A program made the position numbers and the translations under genes. This document shows positions 1 to 34,001 of a DNA stretch of 36,857 bases, one piece after another. Every line of letters begins with the position of its first letter. Position 1 is the first letter of the stretch. Source of the DNA: a virus (Duplodnaviria > Heunggongvirae > Uroviricota > Caudoviricetes); the IMG/VR virus record IMGVR_UViG_2690316068_000008, positions 1 to 36,857 of that record; one strand, 5' to 3'. Under the pieces are notes generated by a model. The model worked only from the letters and a program-made list of their open reading frames with translations. It made no database searches and was not told the DNA's origin.

Positions 1-1053
1 TTACGGGGTAATGCCAACCGCTGCCGCCACTTTGTCGCCACTTGGCAGCGTTGCCAGAGGGTTGAAACGGAGCGCCGTTTCCAGATGATCCGGTGCCAGA
101 TGTGCGTAACGCATAGTCATTTTTATATCGTGGTGTCCGAGAATTTTTTGTAAGGCTAGAATGTTTCCACCCGACATCATGAAGTGCGCCGCAAACGTAT
201 GGCGCAGAACGTGTGTGAGTTGACCGCGAGGGAGCACGATAGACGTTTTTTCCATCACGGATAAAAATTGAAAATAGCAGTCTGTAAAGAAATTGAACCC
301 ATCAAGCGCCATGATCTCTTCGTAAAGCTCTTTACTTATAGGGATGCTTCTGTTTTTCTTCCCCTTCGTTCTGACAAAGGTAATTCGGTATTTGGTCACC
401 TGTGAGCGGGTAAGATTTACGGCTTCACGCCAGCGTGCGCCTGTGCTTAAGCATATCTTAACTACCAGTGCCAGAATTGGGTCCTGACGTTTGCAATCAG
501 CCAGCAATTCAACAATCTGCTCATGGGTAAGCCATGCCATCTCTTTTTCTGCGATGGTGAATTTTCGCATGTTCTCCAGTGGGTTCGGATACGACCATTC
601 GCCCAGACGGGATAGTTCGCTAAAAACACTACTTAGATAGCTTTGCTCCAGGTTAATGGTGACCGGGCTTGCTCCTTTCTTCCATTTCTCGCTGAAGTAG
701 ATCTCGCCTGTCAGGCGTTTATCTCGATAGTGGGCAAACATTTTAGAGGTGAGATCGGTTGCAAGAGGATTGCCCAGAGCGTCAACCATCAACAGCAATT
801 TGTCATAGACATGCTGCCCAGCTGTCAGAGATTTACCATGTAGTTTGAACCATAGCTCAACCACGTCTTTCAGTGTTCGACGATCCACTGATTCACCCAG
901 CCAGGGCTTTGCTTCGGTTTCTTCCATCGTGTGGCGCTCAAAAGCCAGAGCTTCGCCTTTGGTGGCGAATTGTTTACGCACCCGACGCCCACTACGTCCG
1001 GCGGGGTAACATTCGCAAAGCCATTTTCCTGTGGTGAGTTTTCGTACTGCCAT
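1..1053 (-). CDS. int: Tyrosine integrase (P2-family site-specific recombinase)
   Basis: 350-aa ORF with ATG at 1053 and stop at the window edge. C-terminal region HVLRHTFAAHFMMSGGNILALQKILGHHDIKMTMRYAHL fits the tyrosine-recombinase R..H..R..Y catalytic pattern. Position at the prophage end. Confidence 0.9.
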   Translation of the reverse strand: MAVRKLTTGKWLCECYPAGRSGRRVRKQFATKGEALAFERHTMEETEAKPWLGESVDRRTLKDVVELWFKLHGKSLTAGQHVYDKLLLMVDALGNPLATDLTSKMFAHYRDKRLTGEIYFSEKWKKGASPVTINLEQSYLSSVFSELSRLGEWSYPNPLENMRKFTIAEKEMAWLTHEQIVELLADCKRQDPILALVVKICLSTGARWREAVNLTRSQVTKYRITFVRTKGKKNRSIPISKELYEEIMALDGFNFFTDCYFQFLSVMEKTSIVLPRGQLTHVLRHTFAAHFMMSGGNILALQKILGHHDIKMTMRYAHLAPDHLETALRFNPLATLPSGDKVAAAVGITP

Positions 1054-1058
1054 AATAA

Positions 1059-1078
1059 AGCCCTCATATCAGAGGGCT
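1059..1078 (-). terminator. Stem-loop (AGCCCTC-atatca-GAGGGCT) between KAP NTPase gene and int start; possible terminator or translational control element
   Basis: Perfect 7-bp inverted repeat with a 6-nt loop, seen directly in sequence, a few nt upstream of the int start codon on the minus strand. Confidence 0.3.
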
Positions 1079-1139
1079 AAATTTAACTGTATGTTTGACC
1101 AGTGGTCAATGTATGGTTTAGTTTATTCAAACAATGCTT

Positions 1140-2657
1140 TTAATCAAATGATGTGGCCAGTTCAATTAATTCAATGTAATTATGTAAGGCATAAAAAGAT
1201 GTATTCAGTCCATTCTCTATAAGGGCTCCTTGCAAATACTTTATAGCTGTATCACCATCAATAGGGCCTTGTTGAGATTTAATCATTAGTGAATTTTGCC
1301 CATTGTTTTTTATACTTGATTTAAGTATGTTTATATTATTGATAAAATACAATGCAACATCTAAGTAATTTATTAATGTTAAATTTATTTTGGGCTCGAT
1401 CTGTGAGATGAATAATCTACTGCTCGCCGTTGTATAGATATAATTGACACCTATTCTTTGCTGATTTGTATCAAGATTTAATTCAAGGATGGCTTGAGAA
1501 ACACCTTTTAAATTGGAGCTTTGCTTTATCGAATCAGTGAAACGTTGTGCTGCATTTCTTCGACCAATTAGTCCATCTATAATTTGACGATCCTTATCAT
1601 ATATAATCATTAGCGAAATTATAAAAATATAATCTACTTTCTTTTTGACTAAATCAGATTTAAGAATGTCTATTAACCTTTCAGTATTTCGGATTGAGTC
1701 TCTTAGATTTAACCCAAATGCTTCAAATACGTTGGAAATATTTATTGAAAAGTCTTCTAATGTTGCGGTTAGTGGGTATGTTTTTGATGTGATATTTTCA
1801 AACTCGGTACCAATATAATCACCAACAACACCATTAATTAAATCTTTAAGTTCAGGTTGTTTTAAAGTAAATCTTCTATGAAAAAAACGGCCTAAATAGT
1901 CATTTGCGGAAAAATCATTACCGTAAACATTCTTGATTGAATGTTGTAATTGATCTGTGTCAGTAGCAATAATAAAGACAAAATTTTTAATGTCGAATAT
2001 ATGTTTAACAATCTCTAAAAGAGAAATTGCATAATCTGGCCTGCATCTGTCTAATTCATCTATAAAGATAAATATAGGACATGAAAAACTATTTTCATAT
2101 GCCAACCTAGACCATAACGTAAGTTCTTTTTTTAATACCTTAATGCTCTTCAGTTTTTCCTGGTGTTCCTTCAGCATTATTAATGAGGCTTCTTTGGCTA
2201 TATCACCTACGTTATCTACTCCTGCATAAGTCTTGATTAGGCCAGATATGATTTCAGGTAGAACACCTTTTGTAAAGCGTCCGATAGCATGGCCGCTTTG
2301 TATCAATCGAGCATCAAGTTTTCCTGCATATGTTTGCAATTGTTGTGACAAAGAAGAAAAAAGGGTTAAAAATGCATCATCAGAAAAGTCTTGCTTCCAG
2401 GCATCAATGTAAACGCATGGGTGTGCATCTTTTATTGAGTTATAAAATCTCTTTATGAAAAAACTTTTACCAGCTCCCCATTCTGCATTAAGGTTGATTA
2501 CCGTGTTGTTCTTTTGCCCCTTTTCCTTAAGATAAAAATATAGATATTCTGCATAGTGTCTCCGATTAAGTTTGTCTTTGGAAAGAATTTCCTCTTCGTC
2601 GTCTAATATAAAGGTAGTTTCTTCATCCCAGTTCCAATTACAATCACCACATTTCAC
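1140..2657 (-). CDS. KAP-family P-loop NTPase (cargo/moron, putative defence-associated)
   Basis: 505-aa ORF with Walker A-like AEWGAGKS and Walker B-like IFIFIDELDRCRPDY, typical of KAP NTPases. Apparent GTG start at 2657 with GGAGA upstream. AT-rich compared with the phage backbone. Confidence 0.65.
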   Translation of the reverse strand: MKCGDCNWNWDEETTFILDDEEEILSKDKLNRRHYAEYLYFYLKEKGQKNNTVINLNAEWGAGKSFFIKRFYNSIKDAHPCVYIDAWKQDFSDDAFLTLFSSLSQQLQTYAGKLDARLIQSGHAIGRFTKGVLPEIISGLIKTYAGVDNVGDIAKEASLIMLKEHQEKLKSIKVLKKELTLWSRLAYENSFSCPIFIFIDELDRCRPDYAISLLEIVKHIFDIKNFVFIIATDTDQLQHSIKNVYGNDFSANDYLGRFFHRRFTLKQPELKDLINGVVGDYIGTEFENITSKTYPLTATLEDFSINISNVFEAFGLNLRDSIRNTERLIDILKSDLVKKKVDYIFIISLMIIYDKDRQIIDGLIGRRNAAQRFTDSIKQSSNLKGVSQAILELNLDTNQQRIGVNYIYTTASSRLFISQIEPKINLTLINYLDVALYFINNINILKSSIKNNGQNSLMIKSQQGPIDGDTAIKYLQGALIENGLNTSFYALHNYIELIELATSFD

Positions 2658-2682
2658 TATGAAGTCTCCATGAAAAATTTAC

Positions 2683-3606
2683 TTAATGTAAACAACTTAT
2701 AATAACTTTTGCAATAAACTCAATGTCTGTAAGCGAACATTCAAAAGAGTGATTTTTGGATGAAATATAAACTCGTCCTTTAGGTAGTCGAGTTATCATT
2801 CTAAATGAATTCTCTCCATCAATATTTACTAGCCACTTACCATCATGTACATCTTTAAAACCCATTTCACATATTAATTCAGAGTCTTCGGTAGATACTA
2901 CGAATGCATTTTTTAAATTGGAAGGTAGAAAACATGGGTCAAATAAATATGAGCCATCATTTATTAACTTGCCATTGATTAATACTTTTTTCACTAATGT
3001 TAAAGTATCTTTATTTTTTGCGTTTTTCATTTCTCCTGTACCAAATGAAATCCATTCAATAGAATGGCCCGTTTCTATTGCACACTGCAAAACCCAGTCT
3101 GCAGGAAAAATGTCACGCATGTATCGTGTGGCTAATGTGCTTTTTGAAATACCTAGGTGATCAGCTAATGCTTGGCGCGTTTTGTAACCGTAAGCCTCGA
3201 CAATTCGTTCTATTGTTGCCTTACCCCCTCGGTTAAAATTCATGAGTTTTTCATTATCGAACTTTATAGTGGGAATGTATACTTCATTGCAAAGGCCATT
3301 AACGGCATGTTTTTCAGAATATTGCTCTGATGAAGGAGCAGTATCTGAACCAAGAACTAACCATTCAATTGATGCTCCTGTTTCTATGGAACATATAACA
3401 ACCCAATCTGCAGGAAAGGTATTACGTGCATATCTGTTGGCCATAGTACTTTGGGAAATACCTAGATGATTACATAATGCCTGTCGTGACTTGAAGCCAT
3501 AGGCTAGGAGTATACGCTCAATAACTTTTTGCCCTCCACGATTCTGCATAACTATTGCTTTCAGATCGTTTTTGATATGGCTAAATTTTAATTTTTGAGT
3601 TGACAT
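2683..3606 (-). CDS. CI-repressor paralog with two tandem N-terminal HTH domains and a CI-like C-terminal domain
   Basis: 307-aa ORF. Residues about 25-85 and 128-188 are near-duplicates (ERILLAYGFKSRQALCNHLGISQSTMANRY...ETGASIEWL versus ERIVEAYGYKTRQALADHLGISKSTLATRY...ETGHSIEWI). The C-terminal domain is paralogous to the C-terminus of the adjacent 191-aa repressor. Confidence 0.6.
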   Translation of the reverse strand: MSTQKLKFSHIKNDLKAIVMQNRGGQKVIERILLAYGFKSRQALCNHLGISQSTMANRYARNTFPADWVVICSIETGASIEWLVLGSDTAPSSEQYSEKHAVNGLCNEVYIPTIKFDNEKLMNFNRGGKATIERIVEAYGYKTRQALADHLGISKSTLATRYMRDIFPADWVLQCAIETGHSIEWISFGTGEMKNAKNKDTLTLVKKVLINGKLINDGSYLFDPCFLPSNLKNAFVVSTEDSELICEMGFKDVHDGKWLVNIDGENSFRMITRLPKGRVYISSKNHSFECSLTDIEFIAKVIISCLH

Positions 3607-3656
3607 ATTTTTTACACCACAACAAATGCTTTACCAAGCATAAAAACATTCCTATG

Positions 3657-4232
3657 TTACTCAAAGTACTTAACTGTTATGGTTATAATTTTTCCAATAA
3701 TTTCGATTTCTTCTTTTTTACATTCGAAAGCCCTATTTCCACCTTCAACTAAGATTCTTCCACCAGGTAAACGAGTGATATCGCGGATTGTTACTTCGGC
3801 ATCAATACTTATTACCCATTTACCGTCACGAATATCGTTAAACTCTTTATCGCAAATAAAAACGGAATTGTTATCGGTGATTACAAACGGATTTTTGAGC
3901 GTAGATGGTAGAAATTCTTTATCGAAAATATAAAAACCATCTTCCTGCAAGGTTCCATCAGATAATACATATTTAACGACTTCCATAGTATTTGTATTAC
4001 CTGAAGTTTGCTTTGAACCATGTCCGGTCGTGAGCCAGTTAAGCGAGGCGCCCGTTTCAAGTGCGCACTGGATTACCCATTCAGCAGGGAATGAGTCACG
4101 CATATAGCGTGTGGCGAGAGTACTTTTAGAGATTCCTAAGTGATCGCACAACGCCTGTCGAGTCTTGAAGCCATATGCTTCTACCATGCGCTCTATAGCG
4201 CCTCGTCCGCCTTTCTCCAAATTCATGGTCAC
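3657..4232 (-). CDS. cI: Immunity repressor, 186 CI-type (HTH N-domain plus oligomerisation C-domain)
   Basis: 191-aa ORF adjacent to the divergent early operon. N-terminal ERMVEAYGFKTRQALCDHLGISKSTLATRYMRD HTH-like segment. Length close to the 186 CI as I recall it. Start may be GTG at 4232 or ATG at 4226. Confidence 0.6.
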   Translation of the reverse strand: MTMNLEKGGRGAIERMVEAYGFKTRQALCDHLGISKSTLATRYMRDSFPAEWVIQCALETGASLNWLTTGHGSKQTSGNTNTMEVVKYVLSDGTLQEDGFYIFDKEFLPSTLKNPFVITDNNSVFICDKEFNDIRDGKWVISIDAEVTIRDITRLPGGRILVEGGNRAFECKKEEIEIIGKIITITVKYFE

Positions 4233-4250
4233 TCCAAGTGAACTTTTGTC

Positions 4251-4279
4251 TTGACGATTTCATTATGCGATCGTATGTT
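4251..4279 (+). promoter_or_regulatory. Candidate early lytic promoter (pR/Pe-like): TTGACG, 17-nt spacer, TATGTT
   Basis: Sequence reading only: -35-like TTGACG at 4251-4256 and -10-like TATGTT at 4274-4279 in the cI/apl divergent intergenic region. Confidence 0.35.
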
Positions 4280-4351
4280 TATGATGTTCACAAAATACAA
4301 ACGATCCGTATTCGTCCTGATTAATCAACATTAAACGAGGAATGTTGCATC

Positions 4352-4573
4352 ATGAAACATAACATTTCAATCACTCTTACCACGCCTCATGTGACTATTG
4401 AACGTTATAGCGAGCTGACAGGGCTATCCATCGATACTATCAATGACATGTTGGCTGACGGACGCCTTATCCGTCACCGTTTGCGCAAAGATAAAAAACG
4501 CGAAAAAGTGATGATCAACATAGCAGCCATGACCGTTGATGCGCTTTCAGAATGCAATCTAAACCTTAATTAG
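4352..4573 (+). CDS. Apl/Cox-like excisionase and transcriptional regulator (small HTH protein)
   Basis: 73-aa ORF, first gene of the rightward early operon opposite cI. HTH-like segment [24 protein letters not shown]. Confidence 0.45.
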
Positions 4574-4605
4574 TTCGATTCTGAAATACATCAGAGGCAT
4601 TGACC

Positions 4606-5115
4606 ATGTTTGATTACCAAGTTTCCAAACATCCACATTTTGATGAAGCCTGTCGTGCATTTGCACTGCGCCACAATCTGGTGCAACTGGCAGAACGTGC
4701 AGGCATGAATGTGCAGATTCTGCGGAACAAGCTGAACCCAGCTCAGCCTCATCTATTAACCGCACCAGAAATCTGGCTGCTTACCGATCTGACTGAAGAT
4801 TCAACGCTGGTAGATGGTTTTCTGGCACAGATTCATTGTCTGCCATGTGTACCGATTAATGAGGTGGCAAAAGAGAAACTGCCACATTACGTCATGAGTG
4901 CAACCGCAGAGATCGGGCGTGTTGCTGCAGGTGCGGTATCTGGCGATGTAAAAACCAGTGCAGGTCGTCGTGATGCTATCAGCAGCATTAACTCTGTAAC
5001 ACGACTGATGGCGTTGGCTGCTGTTTCATTGCAGGCCCGTTTACAGGCTAACCCTGCGATGGCGAGTGCAGTTGATACCGTGACCGGCCTCGGTGCTTCA
5101 TTCGGTTTGCTGTGA
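4606..5115 (+). CDS. cII: Phage regulatory protein CII-like (186 CII family)
   Basis: ATG at 4606 preceded by a GAGG-containing RBS. Position immediately after the Apl-like gene and a length similar to 186 CII as I recall it. The family call is from memory of the sequence pattern. Confidence 0.5.
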
Positions 5116-10632: not shown

Positions 10633-11547
10633 ATGCCATACCAATTGGTAGAGCTTAGCCCCGTAGCTAACGATCTTGAACAGTTAGGAACCAAAGAGAA
10701 GTTTTGGTTCTATTTCTCCGATGACACTGTAAATTTGCAGTTGTTTAAGTACTCTAGGCCAGGTACTGGCGAGCATTGGTCTGAAAAGTGTGCTGCTGAG
10801 TTATGTCATTTGCTTAACATTCCACATGCTAGCTATGATTTGGCGCGATACAATGGTCGATTCGGTGTGGTGACTCAGAATATCATTCCATCTGGTTTCC
10901 GGATGGTAATGGGAAATGAAGTGCTTCACAGTTCGACATTCGATTATCCTGGGCCTTTACAAGCCGGGGAAAAGCCGGTAAGGGTCAGAGAACACACTGT
11001 CACAAGGGTATTGGGTTGTTTAGATAGGGAATCTATCAAGCCTCCTCCGAGTGTATATGATCTAACCGGGCTAAATGCAGCAGATGTATTTTGTGGATAT
11101 TTGATGCTCGATGCACTTGTGAGTAATCAAGATCGCCATCATGAAAATTGGGCGATCATGCTTAACAATGAAACTGGTGAGCAGTTTTTGTGTCCAACAT
11201 ACGATCATGCCGCTAGTTTAGGAAGGGAGATGTTAGATGATGAGCGTAACGAACGGCTTAATACTAAAGATAAAAATCGACAAATCCCATGTTTTGTAAG
11301 AAAAGCTCGCTCTGAGCTATTCAAAGCAAAAACTGATAAAAAGCCCTTGCTGACCGTTGAAGCATTTCAACATGCAGTTGAAGGGAGAGTTGCCGCTCGC
11401 GACCATTGGTTAGGTAAGTTGAGCGTTTTAACAGAAGATTCCATTACAGATGTGTTTAACCAAGTGCCTTCATCGTGTATATCCGACAGTGCACGTAGAT
11501 TTGCAACGTTAATGGTAATGGAAAATCGCAGAAGGTTACTAGAATGA
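10633..11547 (+). CDS. HipA-like Ser/Thr kinase (short, kinase domain only; cargo gene 1)
   Basis: 304 aa. Motifs LGTKEKF, SNQDRHHENW and LCPTYDHA line up with HipA ATP-binding, catalytic-loop and Mg-binding motifs as I recall them. AT-rich; RBS AGGGA upstream. Confidence 0.6.
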   Translation: MPYQLVELSPVANDLEQLGTKEKFWFYFSDDTVNLQLFKYSRPGTGEHWSEKCAAELCHLLNIPHASYDLARYNGRFGVVTQNIIPSGFRMVMGNEVLHSSTFDYPGPLQAGEKPVRVREHTVTRVLGCLDRESIKPPPSVYDLTGLNAADVFCGYLMLDALVSNQDRHHENWAIMLNNETGEQFLCPTYDHAASLGREMLDDERNERLNTKDKNRQIPCFVRKARSELFKAKTDKKPLLTVEAFQHAVEGRVAARDHWLGKLSVLTEDSITDVFNQVPSSCISDSARRFATLMVMENRRRLLE

Positions 11548-12284
11548 CTAATACAAACTCCGTTTACGTCGCATGGCAGGCACCAGATACCAGAGACTGG
11601 CATGTTGTTGGTAACTTGCAAGAGCGCAAATCGGGGTATGTTTTCAGGTATACCAAAGGTGCTCTTAAATCTACTAAATTTACAAAGTTTAGCGGCATGA
11701 GTGATGTTCGTGAAACTTATGTTTCGGAAGAATTGTTTCCTCTTTTTAAAAATCGCCTTTTATCACCGAGACGTCCAGAGTATCCGAGTTTCATTAAATG
11801 GCTTGGATTTGAAGAAGATAAGGTAAATCCTATCGATATTCTTGCTCGCTCGGGAGGCTTACGAAGCACTGATCAGCTGCAGATTTTCAAAAAAATTGAT
11901 GTTGATTCTGATGGTAACTTTGAGCATTTTTTCTTCTTACATGGACTTGGTTACTTAAATAGCTTAGCTAATGCTCGTGTATCTGAATTGAAACCGGGGC
12001 AAATTTTGCGTCTTTGCTTGGATCTTCAAAATGAATACGATGGGGATGCTGTTGTCGTTCGTGCAGATAAACCAGCTGAAATCGTTGGTTACTGCCCTAG
12101 GTATTTAAGTAATGATATCAAGAAGATGTTATTGGATGATCCAAAATCAATCACTTTAACGGTCGAAAAGATTAGCGATGATGCTCCTCATAACTATCGG
12201 TTATTATGTAAATTATCAGGAGTACTAAGCCAAGCCTGTCAATCGACGCTGATTCCTCAGGATGAGTTTGAACCTATTGAGTAA
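11544..12284 (+). CDS. HipA N-terminal-subdomain-like (HipS-like) protein fused to a HIRAN-like C-terminal domain (cargo gene 2)
   Basis: 246 aa, ATGA overlap with gene 1. N-terminal segments VVGNLQERKSGYVFRY, LFPLFKNRLLSP and NPIDILARSGGLRS resemble the HipA N-subdomain. C-terminal NEYDGDAVVVRADKPAEIVGYCPRYLS resembles the HIRAN core. Confidence 0.5.
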   Translation: MTNTNSVYVAWQAPDTRDWHVVGNLQERKSGYVFRYTKGALKSTKFTKFSGMSDVRETYVSEELFPLFKNRLLSPRRPEYPSFIKWLGFEEDKVNPIDILARSGGLRSTDQLQIFKKIDVDSDGNFEHFFFLHGLGYLNSLANARVSELKPGQILRLCLDLQNEYDGDAVVVRADKPAEIVGYCPRYLSNDIKKMLLDDPKSITLTVEKISDDAPHNYRLLCKLSGVLSQACQSTLIPQDEFEPIE

Positions 12285-20257: not shown

Positions 20258-20702
20258 ACTGCAGAAGGTGGACGACTGGCTGAGTGTCTTGCTGACGAAT
20301 CTGGAGCCAGCCGCAAGAAGCCGCATGATGCGTCAGCTGGCGCAGGAACTGCGCCGGACACAGCAGCAGAATATCAGGATGCAGCACAACCCTGACGGTA
20401 GCAGCTATGAACCGAGACGGGTAACAGCACGCAGCAAAAAGGGTCGCATCAAACGTCAGATGTTTACAAAGCTGCGCACCACCAAATACCTGAAAACTGC
20501 CGCCAGCGCCGATTCTGCCAGCGTGCAGTTTGAAGGTAAGGTGCAGCGCATTGCCCGCGTTCACCATTACGGCCTGCGTGATCGTGTAAGCCGTAATGGT
20601 CCGGAAGTGCGGTATGCAGAGCGGCGATTATTAGGTTTCAATAACGATATAATGTTGAAGTTAATTGATCTGTTAACTCGGCATTTAATTAATCCAAACT
20701 AA
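20250..20702 (+). CDS. S: Tail completion protein gpS
   Basis: 150 aa, apparent GTG start overlapping the R stop. Size matches P2 S. Confidence 0.7.
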   Translation: MAELQKVDDWLSVLLTNLEPAARSRMMRQLAQELRRTQQQNIRMQHNPDGSSYEPRRVTARSKKGRIKRQMFTKLRTTKYLKTAASADSASVQFEGKVQRIARVHHYGLRDRVSRNGPEVRYAERRLLGFNNDIMLKLIDLLTRHLINPN

Positions 20703-21894
20703 GTTTATATTTCTCAATGTGATTATTGATGTGATTAAAGAACATTCTTGGATTCCAACCTTTTGTGAGTTCAGAAATTAAATACTCATCAACCATGTCG
20801 AGTGCATAGTCTAAGGTCGGCTGTAAAAGTAGCCCCCCAATTGATCCAACTACTGGAGCTAAAGGAGATGTAATATTCGATGCCGCTAAGGCTCCAGTTA
20901 ACATCATGGCAATGCTCTTAGTCGAACGGCCTAAAAAGGAATCAAAAAATCCTTTTGAGTTTGATATGCTATCAATGTAATATTTTGAGATGTCACTCGC
21001 TGAACTGCTTTGTTCTGCTTCTTTTAACCATTTTCTGAATTTTTTAGCATGACGATCATTTCTGAGCCTCATGATGTCATTCATTGGTAATCCCATTTCA
21101 ATAAATGATTTACGTAAGTCAGGGAAGTTTTCAATGAGTGAAATTTGTTTGAATATCTCATTCTTATCAATTGTAATTAATGCTTGGCTGATAATTGCAC
21201 TCACATTGTCTGTTATGTGGGGGCGAGCTTTTTTATTAACGAGATATTTAAAGTTGAACAGTTCTTCTGCAACTTTTCCTAACTTTTTTTTATCGGTAAG
21301 ACTCAAATCTGTTAATTTCTCTTTAGTTAAATCGATTCCCAACTGGTTAAGTTTACCACTATTCAAAGCTGATATTGTCATGTCAACACAGTCTTTTTCT
21401 AAACCTTTGGGAATGTCTAAGTAGTTATCTCTCAGTTTTTTAATAAGATTTCTTTTTTCACCAGGTTTAAGACCTTTTCTTAATACGCTGAGCCCAGTTG
21501 AGATCGACTCCTCAGGGTCCGTATGTACGGTACTATTAAATCTCATGCTAACTAATGGAAGAGTTCCAGGTATCGGAGATGAAATGTATCCAACATTGGC
21601 AGTCCATAATGAAAAACTAAGAGCCTCTTGGTCAATTAATCTCTCAACATCATATAGGCCTATCTCATTAACCAGAAAAGCAAGTGGAACGTTTTCTCCA
21701 TATACTTTGAAGTTTAATTTTTCATTTAAAATAAAACCCTCAAATAGCTTTGATCTAATATTTTGAAGTTTTTTAGGTTGATCTATTATGTCTTGCTTCG
21801 TGAGCTGTGTTTCGCCAATCATAATATATTTTCGGCAGTAATCGTTTAGTTCTGTATCAAATAAAGCATTCGATATATCTATTTTTTTTGACAT
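20689..21894 (-). CDS. Hypothetical 401-aa cargo (moron) protein with C-terminal hydrophobic segment
   Basis: Long AT-rich ORF on the opposite strand between S and V, ATG at 21894. C-terminal stretch SIAMMLTGALAASNITSPLAPVVGSIGGLLLQ is hydrophobic. No recognisable catalytic motif. Confidence 0.5.
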   Translation of the reverse strand: MSKKIDISNALFDTELNDYCRKYIMIGETQLTKQDIIDQPKKLQNIRSKLFEGFILNEKLNFKVYGENVPLAFLVNEIGLYDVERLIDQEALSFSLWTANVGYISSPIPGTLPLVSMRFNSTVHTDPEESISTGLSVLRKGLKPGEKRNLIKKLRDNYLDIPKGLEKDCVDMTISALNSGKLNQLGIDLTKEKLTDLSLTDKKKLGKVAEELFNFKYLVNKKARPHITDNVSAIISQALITIDKNEIFKQISLIENFPDLRKSFIEMGLPMNDIMRLRNDRHAKKFRKWLKEAEQSSSASDISKYYIDSISNSKGFFDSFLGRSTKSIAMMLTGALAASNITSPLAPVVGSIGGLLLQPTLDYALDMVDEYLISELTKGWNPRMFFNHINNHIEKYKLSLD

Positions 21895-22069
21895 CTTATG
21901 ATCCTGTTATCCTTGTGAGGACACCCTAGAGTAATAGTGAATTTATAAATACACAGCGGCATAAATTAGATCTTTTAAGATTTTTTTTCAATCTATAAAT
22001 ATATATAAGTGAAAAGTGATTTTTTGACTGTGAGGGCGGCAAAAGGTGTGGGACGACTTTAAAAGTCAT

Positions 22070-22087
22070 TGTGCTATTGATTACACA
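22070..22087. promoter_or_regulatory. Ogr/Delta-type late-promoter activator site (TGT-N12-ACA) upstream of V
   Basis: TGTgctattgattacACA about 50 bp upstream of the V start. Confidence 0.4.
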
Positions 22088-22133
22088 AGCTTGCGACCTA
22101 TCCAGGTGACTCCTGGAAAGACATTCTATAGGC

Positions 22134-22712
22134 ATGAACGCACAACTAACAGAAATCATGCGCCTTATCACCAACCTAATCCGCACTGGTGTAGTCACCG
22201 ACGTGGACCGGGAGAACTGGCTTTGTCGGGTGAAAACGGGCGAGCTTGAAACTAACTGGATCAGCTGGCTGACGCTGCGTGCAGGGAATGCCAGGACATG
22301 GTGGCGACCATCGGAAGGTGAGCAGGTGGTGGTGCTGAGCATGGGCGGCAATCTGGAAACCGCGTTTGCGCTGCCCGCCATCTATTCGAATCAGTTCGCG
22401 CCACCGTCGACGTCGGCGGACGCCTGCGTGACAGAACATCCTGACGGTGGCTGGTTTGAATACGAACCCGCCACCGGGCGCTGGTATGTCAGAGGCATCA
22501 AATCAATGGTCATTGAGGCCGCTGACAACATCACCATGAAAACCAGTGAGTTTGTACTGGAGGCTGACCGCACGCGCATTAACAGCGAAGTGGTGATCAA
22601 TGGTGGCATTACCCAGGGCGGCGGAGCGATGAGTTCTAACGGGATCGTGGTTGATGCGCATCAGCATACTGGCGTCCTGAAAGGCGGCGATACCACCGGA
22701 GGCCCGGTATGA
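22134..22712 (+). CDS. V: Baseplate spike/assembly protein gpV
   Basis: 192 aa, first gene of the V-W-J-I-H-G operon. Size and position as for P2 V. Confidence 0.8.
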   Translation: MNAQLTEIMRLITNLIRTGVVTDVDRENWLCRVKTGELETNWISWLTLRAGNARTWWRPSEGEQVVVLSMGGNLETAFALPAIYSNQFAPPSTSADACVTEHPDGGWFEYEPATGRWYVRGIKSMVIEAADNITMKTSEFVLEADRTRINSEVVINGGITQGGGAMSSNGIVVDAHQHTGVLKGGDTTGGPV

Positions 22713-33692: not shown

Positions 33693-33782
33693 TTCTTCGC
33701 AATGGAGAACTTTTAAGTTTGCAAAATGGAATAATGCGGTATCATTATTGTGAATTTAGCAAAAATGGGGAGAACTCGAAAA

Positions 33783-34001
33783 ATGATGATTTGCCCACTG
33801 TGTGGAAGTGCCGCCCATACTCGCAGCAGTTTTCAGGTATCTTCATTGACCAAAGAGCGTTACAACCAGTGCCAGAACATTAACTGCAGCCATACTTTTG
33901 TTACCCATGAAACTTTTGTTCGTTCGATTGCAACGCCAAAAGAGTCAAATCCGGTTCAGCCGCATCCAATGAAATCAGGACAGGTGGCGCTCTCTCTTTG
34001 A
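33783..34001 (+). CDS. ogr: Late gene activator Ogr/Delta zinc-finger protein
   Basis: ATG at 33783 gives MMICPLCGSAAHTRSS...YNQCQNINCSHTF, with the CxxC...CxxxxC arrangement. Length 72 aa. Confidence 0.8.
   Translation: MMICPLCGSAAHTRSSFQVSSLTKERYNQCQNINCSHTFVTHETFVRSIATPKESNPVQPHPMKSGQVALSL

What the first reader, a model, noticed from the sequence alone, without database searches (positions are those of the whole stretch)
1140..3656. Cargo inside the lysogeny operon: KAP-family NTPase plus a CI paralog, inserted between cI and int
Seen in sequence: between the immunity repressor (3657..4232) and int (1..1053), all on the minus strand with short intergenic gaps (about 50 and 25 bp), lie a 307-aa CI paralog and a 505-aa ORF with AEWGAGKS and IDELDRC motifs typical of KAP-family P-loop NTPases. 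The block is markedly AT-rich compared with int and the structural genes. Established knowledge: P2 itself has C directly next to int, and genes expressed from the lysogenic promoter are a classic location for prophage-encoded superinfection-exclusion or defence morons. Inference: these two genes are co-transcribed with cI in the lysogen and may form a regulator/sensor plus NTPase effector pair. The CI-like partner could recognise operator DNA or a protein of incoming related phages. I cannot assign it to a named defence system from memory.
Basis: partly seen in the sequence, partly recalled or inferred. Interest (0 to 1): 0.75.

Follow-up and report, generated by a model that had tools for sequence, protein, structure and literature searches.

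The report
Prophage cargo: KAP NTPase, spare repressor
A 186-like E. coli prophage carries, between its repressor and integrase genes, a candidate anti-phage ATPase plus a complete second repressor left over from recombination with a related phage; the two genes sit together because of shared ancestry, and nothing found here shows them working as a sensor-effector pair.

Summary
A 2.6-kb AT-rich block lies between cI and int. It encodes a 505-aa KAP-family NTPase and a 307-aa 186-type CI with two HTH domains.

The cI-int interval is a variable cargo slot in this phage lineage. Sibling phages carry PD-Lambda-1, PDC-M11, other KAP NTPases, unknown genes or a 63-aa ORF there; phage 186 has nothing.

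The KAP protein belongs to PADLOC candidate family PDC-S20. In 11 loci of six other prophage lineages a KAP gene directly follows a single CI. More distant homologues (about 40-48% identity) stand alone on chromosomes. It therefore does not need the second CI.

The "paralog" is a chimera:
- Its double-HTH half matches repressors that are the only CI in the three prophages/phages inspected.
- Its C-terminal domain comes from the CI lineage that precedes KAP in Klebsiella, Enterobacter and Cronobacter prophages.
- Its own promoter-operator switch is missing. A 9-codon remnant of the displaced 63-aa ORF marks the joint.

Most likely this is a single-gene defence candidate expressed from pL, plus a displaced but intact repressor that may add immunity to a second immunity group. 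No function was tested. The block occurs in 17 of 5,426 complete E. coli genomes. Interest is moderate.

The parts
1..1053 (-). Integrase (350 aa). This is the left conserved flank of the cargo slot.
   Evidence: Pfam Int_N and Phage_integrase. It is 91-98% identical in DNA across sibling prophages that carry different cargo.
1059..1109 (-). Conserved promoter-like site (TTGACC-18-TAAATT) followed by a hairpin (AGCCCTC/GAGGGCT) and a T-rich run ending at the int ATG. The 3' arm of the hairpin contains the GAGG Shine-Dalgarno-like sequence. It is the likely end of the cI-cargo transcript and may insulate int from it.
   Evidence: Flagged by the promoter/terminator scan. Hairpin energy is -14.7 kcal/mol, z = -3.5; in L002 it is -16.2 kcal/mol, z = -4.7, with a different stem sequence. 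Present in all lineage members examined and absent from phage 186. The function is inferred.
1115..1139 (.). Left edge of the variable region, between the KAP stop codon and the conserved backbone.
   Evidence: Homology to L002-L006 ends at window 1114-1172.
1140..2657 (-). KAP-family P-loop NTPase, 505 aa. The NTPase domain covers about aa 30-300. The C-terminal region (about aa 300-505) has no recognisable family and evolves faster. No transmembrane segment was found.
2683..3606 (-). Long 186-type CI, 307 aa. The AlphaFold2 model shows HTH1 at about aa 13-86, a disordered linker at about aa 87-127, HTH2 at about aa 128-188 and a beta-rich CTD at about aa 200-307. It is a chimera. Residues 1-170 belong to the double-HTH CI family. 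Residues 171-307 come from the CI lineage that precedes KAP in other prophages. The crossover lies near window 3097.
   Evidence: Pfam: two PF07022 domains plus PF16452. Matches solved phage 186 CI, 2FJR, at 1e-22. Domain-wise identities: 87-96% to long CIs in the HTH cores and 62-76% to KAP-linked CI-186 in the C-terminal part. AlphaFold2 gives three folded domains. No sign of decay.
3612..3641 (-). Nine-codon remnant (MLGKAFVVV, then stop) of the 63-aa small ORF (some copies annotated as YdcA family) that follows cI in the common E. coli B-type prophages. The recombination joint lies at about 3615.
   Evidence: Direct sequence comparison with L014 and L002. Homology to CI-189 prophages begins at 3616. 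Homology to long-CI phages ends at 3614.
3657..4232 (-). Primary immunity repressor CI (189 aa from the ATG at 4226, or 191 aa from the GTG at 4232). It has a single HTH plus a CTD and lies next to the switch.
   Evidence: Pfam PF07022 3e-33 and PF16452 7e-27. The same type is the annotated CI in about 530 E. coli genomes at about 88% DNA identity, and it is the only CI in the two loci opened.
4233..4351 (.). Switch region with face-to-face promoter-like sites. pR is TTGACG-17-TATGTT (4251-4279, + strand). pL is TGAACA-17-CATAAT (4290-4262, - strand).
   Evidence: Promoter scan. The layout resembles the annotated phage 186 pR/pL. The region is nearly identical in CI-189 prophages and different in long-CI phages.
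4352..4573 (+). Apl/Cox-like gene (73 aa). The right conserved flank begins at 4338.
   Evidence: Backbone homology resumes at 4338. The position is divergent from cI, as in phage 186.

Best explanation
The block is a recombinational mosaic sitting in the variable cI-int cargo slot of a 186-like prophage.

**How it arose (shown by sequence comparison).** One parent had the layout switch, long (double-HTH) CI with a KAP-lineage C-terminal domain, KAP, int. The other parent was the common E. coli type: switch, CI-189, 63-aa ORF, int. An illegitimate joint formed inside codon 9-10 of the 63-aa ORF and about 8 bp upstream of the long-CI start codon. The product has the CI-189-type switch and repressor first, then the complete long CI without its own promoter-operator region, then KAP.

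**How it is expressed (inferred).** In the lysogen pL transcribes CI-189, long CI and KAP as one unit. The transcript probably ends at the conserved hairpin in front of int.

**What KAP does (inferred).** KAP is an autonomous single-gene defence candidate of PADLOC family PDC-S20. Its fold is closest to switch and oligomerising ATPases such as RdrA, ORC/Cdc6 and NLRs. Its faster-evolving C-terminal region is the likely sensing or effector part. My best guess is that a phage cue triggers nucleotide-dependent assembly that blocks phage growth or kills the infected cell.

**What the long CI does (inferred).** It is not KAP's partner. It is the displaced repressor of the other parent. It is intact, and its two HTH domains are 87-96% identical to repressors that are the only CI in the long-CI phages examined. 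I therefore favour, at about 40%, that it still binds that group's operators. That would give the lysogen immunity to a second immunity group that uses a near-identical integrase next to rcdA, the site in both E. coli long-CI prophages opened.
For: **Mosaic structure**
- Backbone homology breaks at window 1114 and 4338.
- The joint lies at about 3615, marked by the 9-codon ORF remnant.
- The long CI is chimeric: aa 1-170 are of the long-CI type, aa 171-307 of the KAP-linked type.
- Natural phages shuffle the double-HTH/switch module against CTD-plus-cargo modules (L102).
- A second, independent stacking event exists in L111: CI, KAP, an int fragment, a decayed CI pseudogene, PDC-M11, int.

**The slot is a hotspot**
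- At least eight different contents were found across the loci fetched.
- These include PD-Lambda-1 (3e-120), PDC-M11 and three KAP clades that all match PDC-S20.
- The slot is empty in phage 186.
- A cI-int hotspot was reported for K139-like Vibrio phages (PMC9122126).
- An integrase-primase defence region was reported in P2-like phages (bioRxiv 10.64898/2026.02.27.708500).

**KAP works alone**
- It follows a single CI, with no second CI, in 11 loci of six other prophage lineages.
- It stands alone on chromosomes in three genera.
- It is under purifying selection.
- The CI-KAP module stays intact in degraded prophage remnants.
- KAP NTPase proteins have been shown experimentally to defend against phage, depending on the Walker B motif (PMC12632615).

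**Long CI is a genuine repressor type and is intact**
- It is the sole CI in Klebsiella phage 4LV2017 and in E. coli prophages L004 and L005.
- Seven of 83 near-invariant positions differ. All changes are conservative, and five fall in the segment inherited from the other parent.
- dN/dS is 0.15-0.24, against 0.11 between the sole-CI repressors.

**Transcription**
- No structured terminator lies between the two CI genes.
- Promoter-like sites in the block are no more frequent than in shuffled sequence: 13 found, 14.8 expected.
Against: - No experiment or expression data bear on this locus. I found no paper testing PDC-S20.
- KAP has no recognisable enzymatic effector domain and no match to solved structures by sequence, so the mechanism is a guess.
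- Whether the long CI is still under selection since its capture cannot be told. Within the lineage there are only 7 polymorphic sites, 3 synonymous and 4 non-synonymous.
- In the comparable stacked locus L111 the displaced CI has decayed. This favours a passenger reading.
- I could not define operators for either CI type.
- HTH2 has the same recognition-helix sequence as the resident CI. The pB region is identical in a long-CI-only phage. The two repressor types may therefore overlap in specificity and may not be fully heteroimmune.
- No parent phage carrying exactly this long CI next to its own switch was found. The nearest is 62% identical.
Confidence: 0.6

Rival explanations
1. The long CI is a functionless passenger. 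It is a displaced repressor that has lost its switch, was captured recently, and is on its way to decay. KAP is the only working cargo.
For: - In L111 the displaced CI in an analogous stacked locus is a frameshifted pseudogene.
- The donor pR/pL region is lost.
- The cassette is young: 0.2-1.5% polymorphism across five haplotypes.
- It is rare: 17 of 5,426 genomes.
- Within-lineage pN/pS of 0.37 does not differ significantly from neutral.
Against: - The ORF is intact in all five haplotypes.
- No non-conservative change occurs at any family-conserved position.
- The mini-ORF stop lies 5 nt before the long-CI start codon, which leaves room for translation.
- The whole CI-189, long CI, KAP block is under 1% divergent between two backbones whose cII genes differ by 8%. 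This suggests the block spreads as a unit.
Confidence: 0.3
2. One reading: the long CI and KAP form a dedicated regulator/sensor plus NTPase effector pair.
For: - Within the close KAP clade (62-80% identity) the gene always follows a CI whose C-terminal domain is of the same lineage, and the two diverge in step: KAP 80/76/62% against CTD 70/64/58%.
- When a new switch was acquired, the whole old CI was kept together with KAP.
- CI plus KAP persist together in degraded prophages.
Against: - In those relatives the CI is simply the phage's only immunity repressor, and adjacency explains the co-inheritance. Every CTD type examined travels with its own cargo.
- KAP-bearing Serratia and E. coli W phages have CTDs no closer (38-41%) than those of phages without KAP (37-52%).
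- Stand-alone chromosomal homologues exist.
- A third KAP clade sits after the 63-aa ORF rather than after a CI (L104).
- PADLOC models this family as a single-gene candidate.
Confidence: 0.08
3. The long CI acts on the resident phage itself as an auxiliary repressor. It could bind pB or other resident sites, or form mixed oligomers with CI-189, and so tighten lysogeny or alter induction.
For: - HTH2 and the resident CI share an identical recognition-helix sequence, SKSTLATRYMRD.
- The pB region is identical between this phage and a long-CI-only phage.
- In phage 186, CI represses pB.
Against: - The two CTDs are only 46-49% identical, so mixed wheels are doubtful.
- The switch regions of the two immunity types share no detectable similarity before window 4338.
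- No operator could be defined.
Confidence: 0.1
4. KAP is not a defence gene. It serves the phage's own life cycle or another host function.
For: - No member of PDC-S20 has a published test that I could find.
- PHROG 8614 has no assigned function.
- The protein has no recognisable effector domain.
Against: - The gene occupies a slot that holds PD-Lambda-1 and other PADLOC candidates in siblings.
- It is absent from most relatives, so it is not a core gene.
- The nearest structural relatives are defence ATPases: RdrA and BrxC.
- It is retained next to a GmrSD-domain gene in prophage remnants.
Confidence: 0.1

Closest known systems
PADLOC candidate system PDC-S20 (single-gene KAP-family NTPase)
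   Same: Strong HMM match: 6.7e-78, protein residues 20-388 against profile positions 11-381 of 464. Like the model, it is a single gene. Two other KAP clades in the same prophage slot also match PDC-S20: E. coli W at 4e-82 and L104 at 2.6e-171.
   Different: The last 117 residues or so fall outside the profile match. The family is only a candidate, and I found no published test.
PifA of the F plasmid (T7 exclusion) and QatA of QatABCD
   Same: They share the KAP NTPase domain: PifA model 1e-16, QatA 7e-14.
   Different: Only the NTPase domain aligns (PifA profile positions 15-262 of 720). No QatB, QatC or QatD genes are nearby. The NCBIfam QatA score is 43 bits against a cut-off of 600.
RdrA, the ATPase of the RADAR defence system (8FNT, 8FNU)
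   Different: Sequence identity is 11-14%. No RdrB-like gene lies in the cI-int block, whose only ORFs are long CI and KAP. RdrA is about 790 residues; this protein has 505.
Experimentally tested KAP NTPase defence proteins: EF_KAP and relatives (PMC12632615), and 'Reve' from P4-like satellites (bioRxiv 10.64898/2026.02.27.708500)
   Same: Single proteins with a KAP NTPase domain followed by an uncharacterised C-terminal region, carried on mobile elements. For EF_KAP, defence depends on the Walker B motif.
   Different: EF_KAP is modelled with N-terminal transmembrane helices; this protein has none. I could not compare sequences directly. Reve is reported as not recognised by current annotation pipelines, whereas this protein matches PDC-S20.
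Phage 186 CI and its lysogenic operon (cI-int, pR/pL switch)
   Same: Both CI genes have the 186 CI fold families, and 2FJR matches at 1e-22. The layout of convergent pR/pL promoters with apl and cII to the right is the same.
   Different: In phage 186, cI abuts int with no cargo. Here there are two CI genes, one of which has a duplicated HTH. A promoter-like site and hairpin precede int that phage 186 lacks.
Double-HTH ('long') CI of Klebsiella phage 4LV2017 and of E. coli prophages next to rcdA
   Same: The architecture is the same: N-terminal extension, HTH1, linker, HTH2, CTD. Identity is 87-96% in the HTH cores.
   Different: In those phages it is the only repressor and sits next to its own switch. 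Here it has lost the switch, lies second in the operon, and carries a different CTD.
Prophage defence hotspots (Rousset et al. 2022, PMC9122126; the 2026 preprint on P2/P4 hotspots)
   Same: A variable, low-GC interval lies between conserved phage genes and holds known and candidate defence genes. A cI-integrase hotspot is explicitly described for K139-like Vibrio phages.
   Different: Neither paper's searched text describes this enterobacterial 186-like cI-int slot as a hotspot. The 2026 preprint mentions only a broader integrase-primase region. The presence of a whole second repressor as part of the cargo is not described.

Membership tests
KAP family P-loop NTPase (Pfam PF07693) | Profile match above the curated threshold | tested here: met
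   156.2 bits against a cut-off of 20; E = 1.5e-45; residues 32-303.
KAP family P-loop NTPase (Pfam PF07693) | Intact Walker A (GxxGxGKS/T) and Walker B (hhhDELDR) motifs | tested here: met
   EWGAGKS at aa 59-65 and IDELDRC at aa 199-205. G61, G63, K64, D200, E201, D203 and R204 are invariant in 44 homologues.
KAP family P-loop NTPase (Pfam PF07693) | Transmembrane helices inserted in the NTPase domain. This is typical of many members (Aravind et al. 2004, from my own knowledge) and is not universal. | tested here: not met
   The maximum Kyte-Doolittle mean over 19 residues is 1.43, and it falls in a core strand. The insert between Walker A and B (about aa 95-190) is modelled as amphipathic helices.
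PADLOC PDC-S20 (candidate single-gene defence) | Match to the family HMMs | tested here: met
   PDLC04959 at 6.7e-78, plus three further PDC-S20 models at 1e-25 to 1e-46.
PADLOC PDC-S20 (candidate single-gene defence) | Acts as a single gene, with no conserved partner | tested here: met
   Homologues stand alone on chromosomes. In prophages the neighbour is always the phage's own CI, and this is the only lineage found with an intact second CI.
PADLOC PDC-S20 (candidate single-gene defence) | Anti-phage activity | not testable with these tools
PifA (F-plasmid phage exclusion) | Full-length similarity to PifA | tested here: not met
   Only profile positions 15-262 of 720 align; E = 1e-16.
QatABCD | QatA above the NCBIfam cut-off, with QatB, QatC and QatD neighbours | tested here: not met
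   43 bits against a cut-off of 600. The neighbours are CI and int.
RADAR (RdrA/RdrB) | RdrA-like ATPase together with an RdrB adenosine deaminase | tested here: not met
186-type CI immunity repressor | Phage_CI_repr HTH domain plus Phage_CI_C domain | tested here: met
   Both CI genes have them. 2FJR matches at 1e-22.
186-type CI immunity repressor | [quoted passage not shown] | tested here: not met
   This holds for CI-189 (3657-4226) but not for the long CI. Homology to long-CI phages ends 8 bp upstream of its start codon, and the donor switch is gone.
Double-HTH ('long') CI repressors of Peduoviridae | Two HTH domains, a linker and a CTD, with high identity in both HTH domains to repressors that are the only CI in their phage | tested here: met
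   87% identity in HTH1 and 87-96% in HTH2 to P0122-P0124. These are the sole CI in L002, L004 and L005.
Double-HTH ('long') CI repressors of Peduoviridae | Binds the operators of that immunity group and confers immunity | not testable with these tools
   Operators could not be defined from sequence.
Prophage defence hotspot | Variable content between conserved flanks, with known defence systems in the same slot of relatives | tested here: met
   At least eight different contents across the loci fetched. They include PD-Lambda-1, PDC-M11 and three PDC-S20 clades.

The most novel reading that the evidence does not exclude
A guard or decoy arrangement. The switch-less CI is kept because KAP monitors it. 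An incoming phage's antirepressor or other CI-targeting factor would bind the orphan repressor, probably through its KAP-lineage C-terminal domain. KAP, whose fold resembles NLR and other switch ATPases, would detect the change and trigger abortive infection. This would explain three observations:
- The close KAP clade always travels with one CI C-terminal-domain lineage.
- The whole old CI, not just KAP, survived the immunity swap.
- CI plus KAP persist together in decayed prophages.

My evidence makes this unlikely but does not exclude it for the close clade.
Probability: 0.07. Interest if true: 0.85.

Novelty: new variant of a known kind. Interest (0 to 1): 0.4.

Why it matters
If KAP defends, this is one more prophage-borne single-gene system, and a handle on the untested PDC-S20 family. 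It sits in a natural, well-understood expression context: the 186-type pL operon.

The less ordinary part is the repressor.
- The locus shows that immunity modules of 186-like phages are shuffled at the HTH/CTD boundary, so that each CTD travels with its cargo.
- Such shuffling can leave a lysogen with two complete repressors of different architecture.
- If the spare one is active, a prophage can widen its superinfection immunity to a competing immunity group simply by keeping a displaced repressor.

In addition, I found no published description of the double-HTH 186-type CI. It is the sole repressor in each of the three long-CI phages/prophages I opened, and about 350 further E. coli genome records match its double-HTH coding region. 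It would interest people who study the phage 186 CI wheel and its operators.

Tried and rejected
1. **Operator inference.** I compared the switch regions of twelve phages, the annotated phage 186 CI sites (ATTCAC-N5-GTGAAT at FL, FR and pB) and the pB regions. GTGAA/TTCAC half-sites occur in both switch types and at pB, but no consistent operator architecture emerged. I make no claim about cross-recognition.
2. **Selection on the long CI since capture.** Five haplotypes give only 3 synonymous and 4 non-synonymous polymorphisms. My first idea was to compare its total divergence with the synonymous divergence of KAP. I dropped it because the polymorphism density of the long CI (0.76%) equals that of the resident CI (0.70%).
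3. **A separate promoter for the long CI or KAP.** TTGGTA-17-TAAAAA upstream of the long CI is 4/6 + 4/6 and lacks the conserved T at -10 position 6. The relic of the donor pR -35 (TTGACA, overlapping the long-CI ATG) has no usable -10 (my reading). Promoter-like hits in the block are at shuffle level.
4. **A terminator between the two CI genes.** The small hairpin in the 50-bp spacer is not significant (z = -0.23).
5. **Sequence search of KAP against solved structures.** No hit.
6. **Literature.** Searches for PDC-S20, for the E2348/69 P2-like prophage and for double-HTH 186-type CI found nothing relevant. One search call failed on syntax.
7. **CTD-KAP co-evolution as evidence for a pair.** Rejected, because the correlation vanishes outside the close clade.
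8. **Transmembrane KAP.** Rejected.


Full report
**1. What is there**

The window is a 186-like (Peduoviridae) prophage integrated next to rcdA/ybjJ in E. coli. The same element is present in EPEC strain E2348/69.

| Feature | Coordinates (minus strand) |
|---|---|
| int | 1-1053 |
| 505-aa ORF (KAP) | 1140-2657 |
| 307-aa ORF (long CI) | 2683-3606 |
| cI | 3657-4232, more likely starting at the ATG at 4226 |

- The gaps are 86, 25 and 50 bp.
- GC falls to 0.28-0.38 across the block, against about 0.5 in the backbone.
- The 505-aa protein is a KAP-family NTPase (Pfam 1.5e-45) with intact Walker A and B motifs.
- The 307-aa protein has two copies of the 186-CI HTH domain plus the CI C-terminal domain. 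It matches the solved phage 186 CI structure (2FJR, 1e-22).
- In phage 186 itself, cI and int abut with nothing between them.

**2. The cI-int interval is a cargo slot**

DNA comparison with sibling prophages and phages shows conserved backbone up to window 1114 and again from 4338. Everything in between is replaceable.

Across the related loci fetched, the slot held the following:

| Slot content | Where seen |
|---|---|
| 63-aa small ORF (some copies annotated YdcA family) | the commonest state, including E. coli B |
| KAP NTPases of three distinct clades (about 505, 483 and 443 aa), all matching PADLOC PDC-S20 | Klebsiella, Enterobacter, Cronobacter and Serratia relatives; E. coli W; L104 |
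| PD-Lambda-1 (3e-120) | phage vB_EcoM-813R9 (L003) |
| PDC-M11A/B | L111 |
| 349 + 201 aa pair, no family match | L002, L005 |
| 324-aa protein, no family match | L004 |
| Disrupted, split copy of the 63-aa ORF | L038 |
| Nothing | phage 186 |

A cI-integrase hotspot has been described for K139-like Vibrio phages (PMC9122126). An integrase-primase defence region has been described in P2-like phages (bioRxiv 10.64898/2026.02.27.708500). The general phenomenon is therefore known.

**3. The KAP gene**

*Family matches.* It matches PDC-S20 at 6.7e-78. It matches PifA and QatA only through the NTPase domain. PHROG 8614 has no assigned function.

*Context.*
- A KAP gene (36-80% identical to this one) directly follows a single CI, at a spacing of about 0-60 bp (20-25 bp in the close clade), in the prophage loci opened from Klebsiella, Enterobacter, Cronobacter, Serratia and E. 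coli W.
- More distant homologues (about 40-48%) are stand-alone chromosomal genes in Pectobacterium, Pseudoalteromonas and Aeromonas.

*Selection.* The gene is under purifying selection (dN/dS 0.05-0.14). Its C-terminal 200 residues change two to three times faster than the NTPase domain.

*Structure.*
- No transmembrane segment.
- The AlphaFold2 model is confident (mean pLDDT 84).
- No sequence match to any solved structure, and no recognisable effector domain.

*Retention.* In K. aerogenes and Cronobacter the apl-CI-KAP module is intact in prophage remnants whose replication genes and int are gone or broken. In K. aerogenes it lies close to a GmrSD-domain gene. This points to benefit for the host.

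*Published tests of other KAP proteins.* KAP NTPases with uncharacterised C-terminal regions defend Enterococcus in a Walker-B-dependent way (PMC12632615). A single-gene KAP system, "Reve", from P4-like satellites defends E. coli. I found no test of PDC-S20 itself.

**4. The "CI paralog"**

*It is a chimera.*
- Residues 1-170 are an N-terminal extension, HTH1, a roughly 40-residue disordered linker and most of HTH2. In the HTH cores they are 87-96% identical to a family of 310-aa or so "long" CIs.
- Residues 171-307 are the end of HTH2 and the whole C-terminal domain. They are 58-76% identical to the 186-aa CI that precedes KAP in the Klebsiella, Enterobacter and Cronobacter prophages.

*Long CIs are genuine repressors.*
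- They are the only CI, divergent from apl, in Klebsiella phage 4LV2017 and in E. coli prophages at the same attachment site.
- Those phages carry unrelated cargo.
- About 350 further E. coli genome records match the double-HTH coding part. I opened only two of them.

*The modules recombine freely.*
- L102 has the long-CI switch and double HTH joined to the CI-189-type C-terminal domain and the 63-aa ORF.
- P0210 has the CI-189-type HTH joined to a KAP-lineage-like C-terminal domain. Its longest contig has the same length as that of a 71%-identical KAP (P0004); I did not open that contig.
- So the C-terminal domain travels with the cargo. The likely reason is that the nearest conserved sequence available for crossover lies in the HTH-coding region on one side and in int on the other.

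**5. The joint**

- Homology to the common CI-189 prophages (about 530 E. coli genomes) runs from the switch through cI. It continues 41 bp past the cI stop codon, to window 3616.
- Homology to long-CI phages starts at 3614, 8 bp upstream of the long-CI ATG.
- Between the two lies a 9-codon relic, MLGKAFVVV followed by a stop. It comes from the 63-aa ORF that normally follows CI-189.
- The donor's pR/pL region is absent.
- The window therefore carries the CI-189 switch and repressor, then a complete but switch-less long CI, then KAP.

**6. A natural comparator**

L111 shows an independent stacking event in the same slot: CI-188, KAP, the int leader and the first 88 or so int codons, then a frameshifted CI pseudogene, then PDC-M11, then the real int. 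There the displaced CI has decayed.

In the window lineage the displaced CI is intact.
- All five haplotypes have the full ORF.
- Deviations from family-conserved positions are few and conservative. Most are explained by the chimera.
- Pairwise dN/dS against sole-CI repressors is 0.15-0.24, against 0.11 among those repressors themselves.
- Within-lineage polymorphism (3 synonymous, 4 non-synonymous) is too sparse to show selection since capture.

**7. Expression**

- Face-to-face promoter-like sites matching the 186 pR/pL layout lie at 4251-4290.
- No significant structure separates the two CI genes (z = -0.23).
- Promoter-like hits inside the block are at chance level.
- Immediately before int there is a conserved element absent from phage 186. 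It is a good sigma-70-like site (TTGACA/C, 16-18 nt, TAAAAT/TAAATT) followed by a GC-rich hairpin and a T-run that ends at the ATG. The hairpin is kept with different stem sequences in different phages, and its 3' arm contains the GAGG Shine-Dalgarno-like sequence.
- I infer that pL transcripts end there. I also infer that transcripts from the int-proximal site start inside the 5' arm and so escape the hairpin. Both points are untested.

**8. Verdict**

- **Observation:** confirmed.
- **Cargo in the lysogenic operon, likely defence:** supported for KAP by family membership and context, not by any test.
- **Sensor-effector pair:** not supported. The two genes are neighbours by descent.
- **Most likely picture:**
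  - KAP is an autonomous single-gene defence candidate.
  - The long CI is a displaced repressor.
  - About 40% chance that it still works as a second immunity.
  - About 30% that it is a passenger.
  - About 10% that it acts on the resident phage.
- **Least ordinary reading not excluded:** KAP guards the orphan CI (about 7%).
- **Frequency:** the block is rare, in 17 of 5,426 complete E. coli genomes. It is nearly identical between backbones whose cII genes differ by 8%.

Noticed in passing
L002 2903-3844; L004 3610-4554; L005 3587-4528; window 2683-3606: A class of 186-type CI repressors has two HTH domains in one chain: an N-terminal extension, HTH1, a disordered linker of about 40 aa, HTH2 and a CTD. 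It is the only repressor in Klebsiella phage 4LV2017 and in the two E. coli prophages opened, and about 350 further E. coli records match its double-HTH coding region (only two opened). HTH1 and HTH2 are highly conserved while the CTDs differ widely. I found no paper describing this class.
   Followed up: partly
window 1059-1109 (minus strand); same position in L002-L007, L011, L016: A conserved sigma-70-like site is followed by a hairpin and T-run that ends at the int ATG. The hairpin is kept with different stem sequences, and its 3' arm contains the GAGG Shine-Dalgarno-like sequence. Phage 186 lacks it. It looks like a terminator for the cI-cargo transcript combined with control of int translation.
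   Followed up: partly
window 10633-12284 (+): Two low-GC genes (304 and 246 aa) lie between the replication endonuclease gene and the portal gene, which is the classical P2 old/tin hotspot. They match PADLOC candidates PDC-M03A (2e-122) and PDC-M03B (3e-93). Pfam gives a weak HipA_C-like match and a HIRAN domain.
   Followed up: partly
window 20689-22381 (-): A 401-aa ORF (GC about 0.33) and a 151-aa ORF lie on the opposite strand inside the late-gene region. Neither has a Pfam or PADLOC match. They are probably further cargo of unknown function.
   Followed up: no
L111 2414-7515: An independent stacked mosaic occupies the same slot: CI-188, KAP, the int leader plus about 88 int codons, a frameshifted CI pseudogene, an 8xMP-domain protein, PDC-M11A/B, then the real int. 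It shows that module stacking recurs and that a displaced CI can decay.
   Followed up: partly
L106-L110 (K. aerogenes, Cronobacter): Prophage remnants have lost replication and most structural genes, and some have a broken int. They still keep apl, CI-186 and KAP intact. In K. aerogenes the module lies close to a GmrSD-domain gene.
   Followed up: no
window 3612-3641 (-): A nine-codon relic of the 63-aa small secreted-looking ORF (some copies annotated YdcA family) that follows cI in most E. coli relatives. Its stop codon lies 5 nt before the long-CI start codon, which could allow translational coupling.
   Followed up: partly
window 4600-5115 versus L001: cII differs by 8% between this window and E2348/69, with the seven amino-acid changes confined to residues 27-54. 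The CI-189, long CI, KAP block differs by less than 1%. This indicates recent recombination around the block.
   Followed up: no
window 33693-33790; L025 3757-3880: The region upstream of the ogr/B-like late activator gene is identical between this phage and a long-CI-only phage. In phage 186 this promoter carries two CI sites. If CI control of pB is conserved, both repressor types would have to recognise the same DNA.
   Followed up: partly
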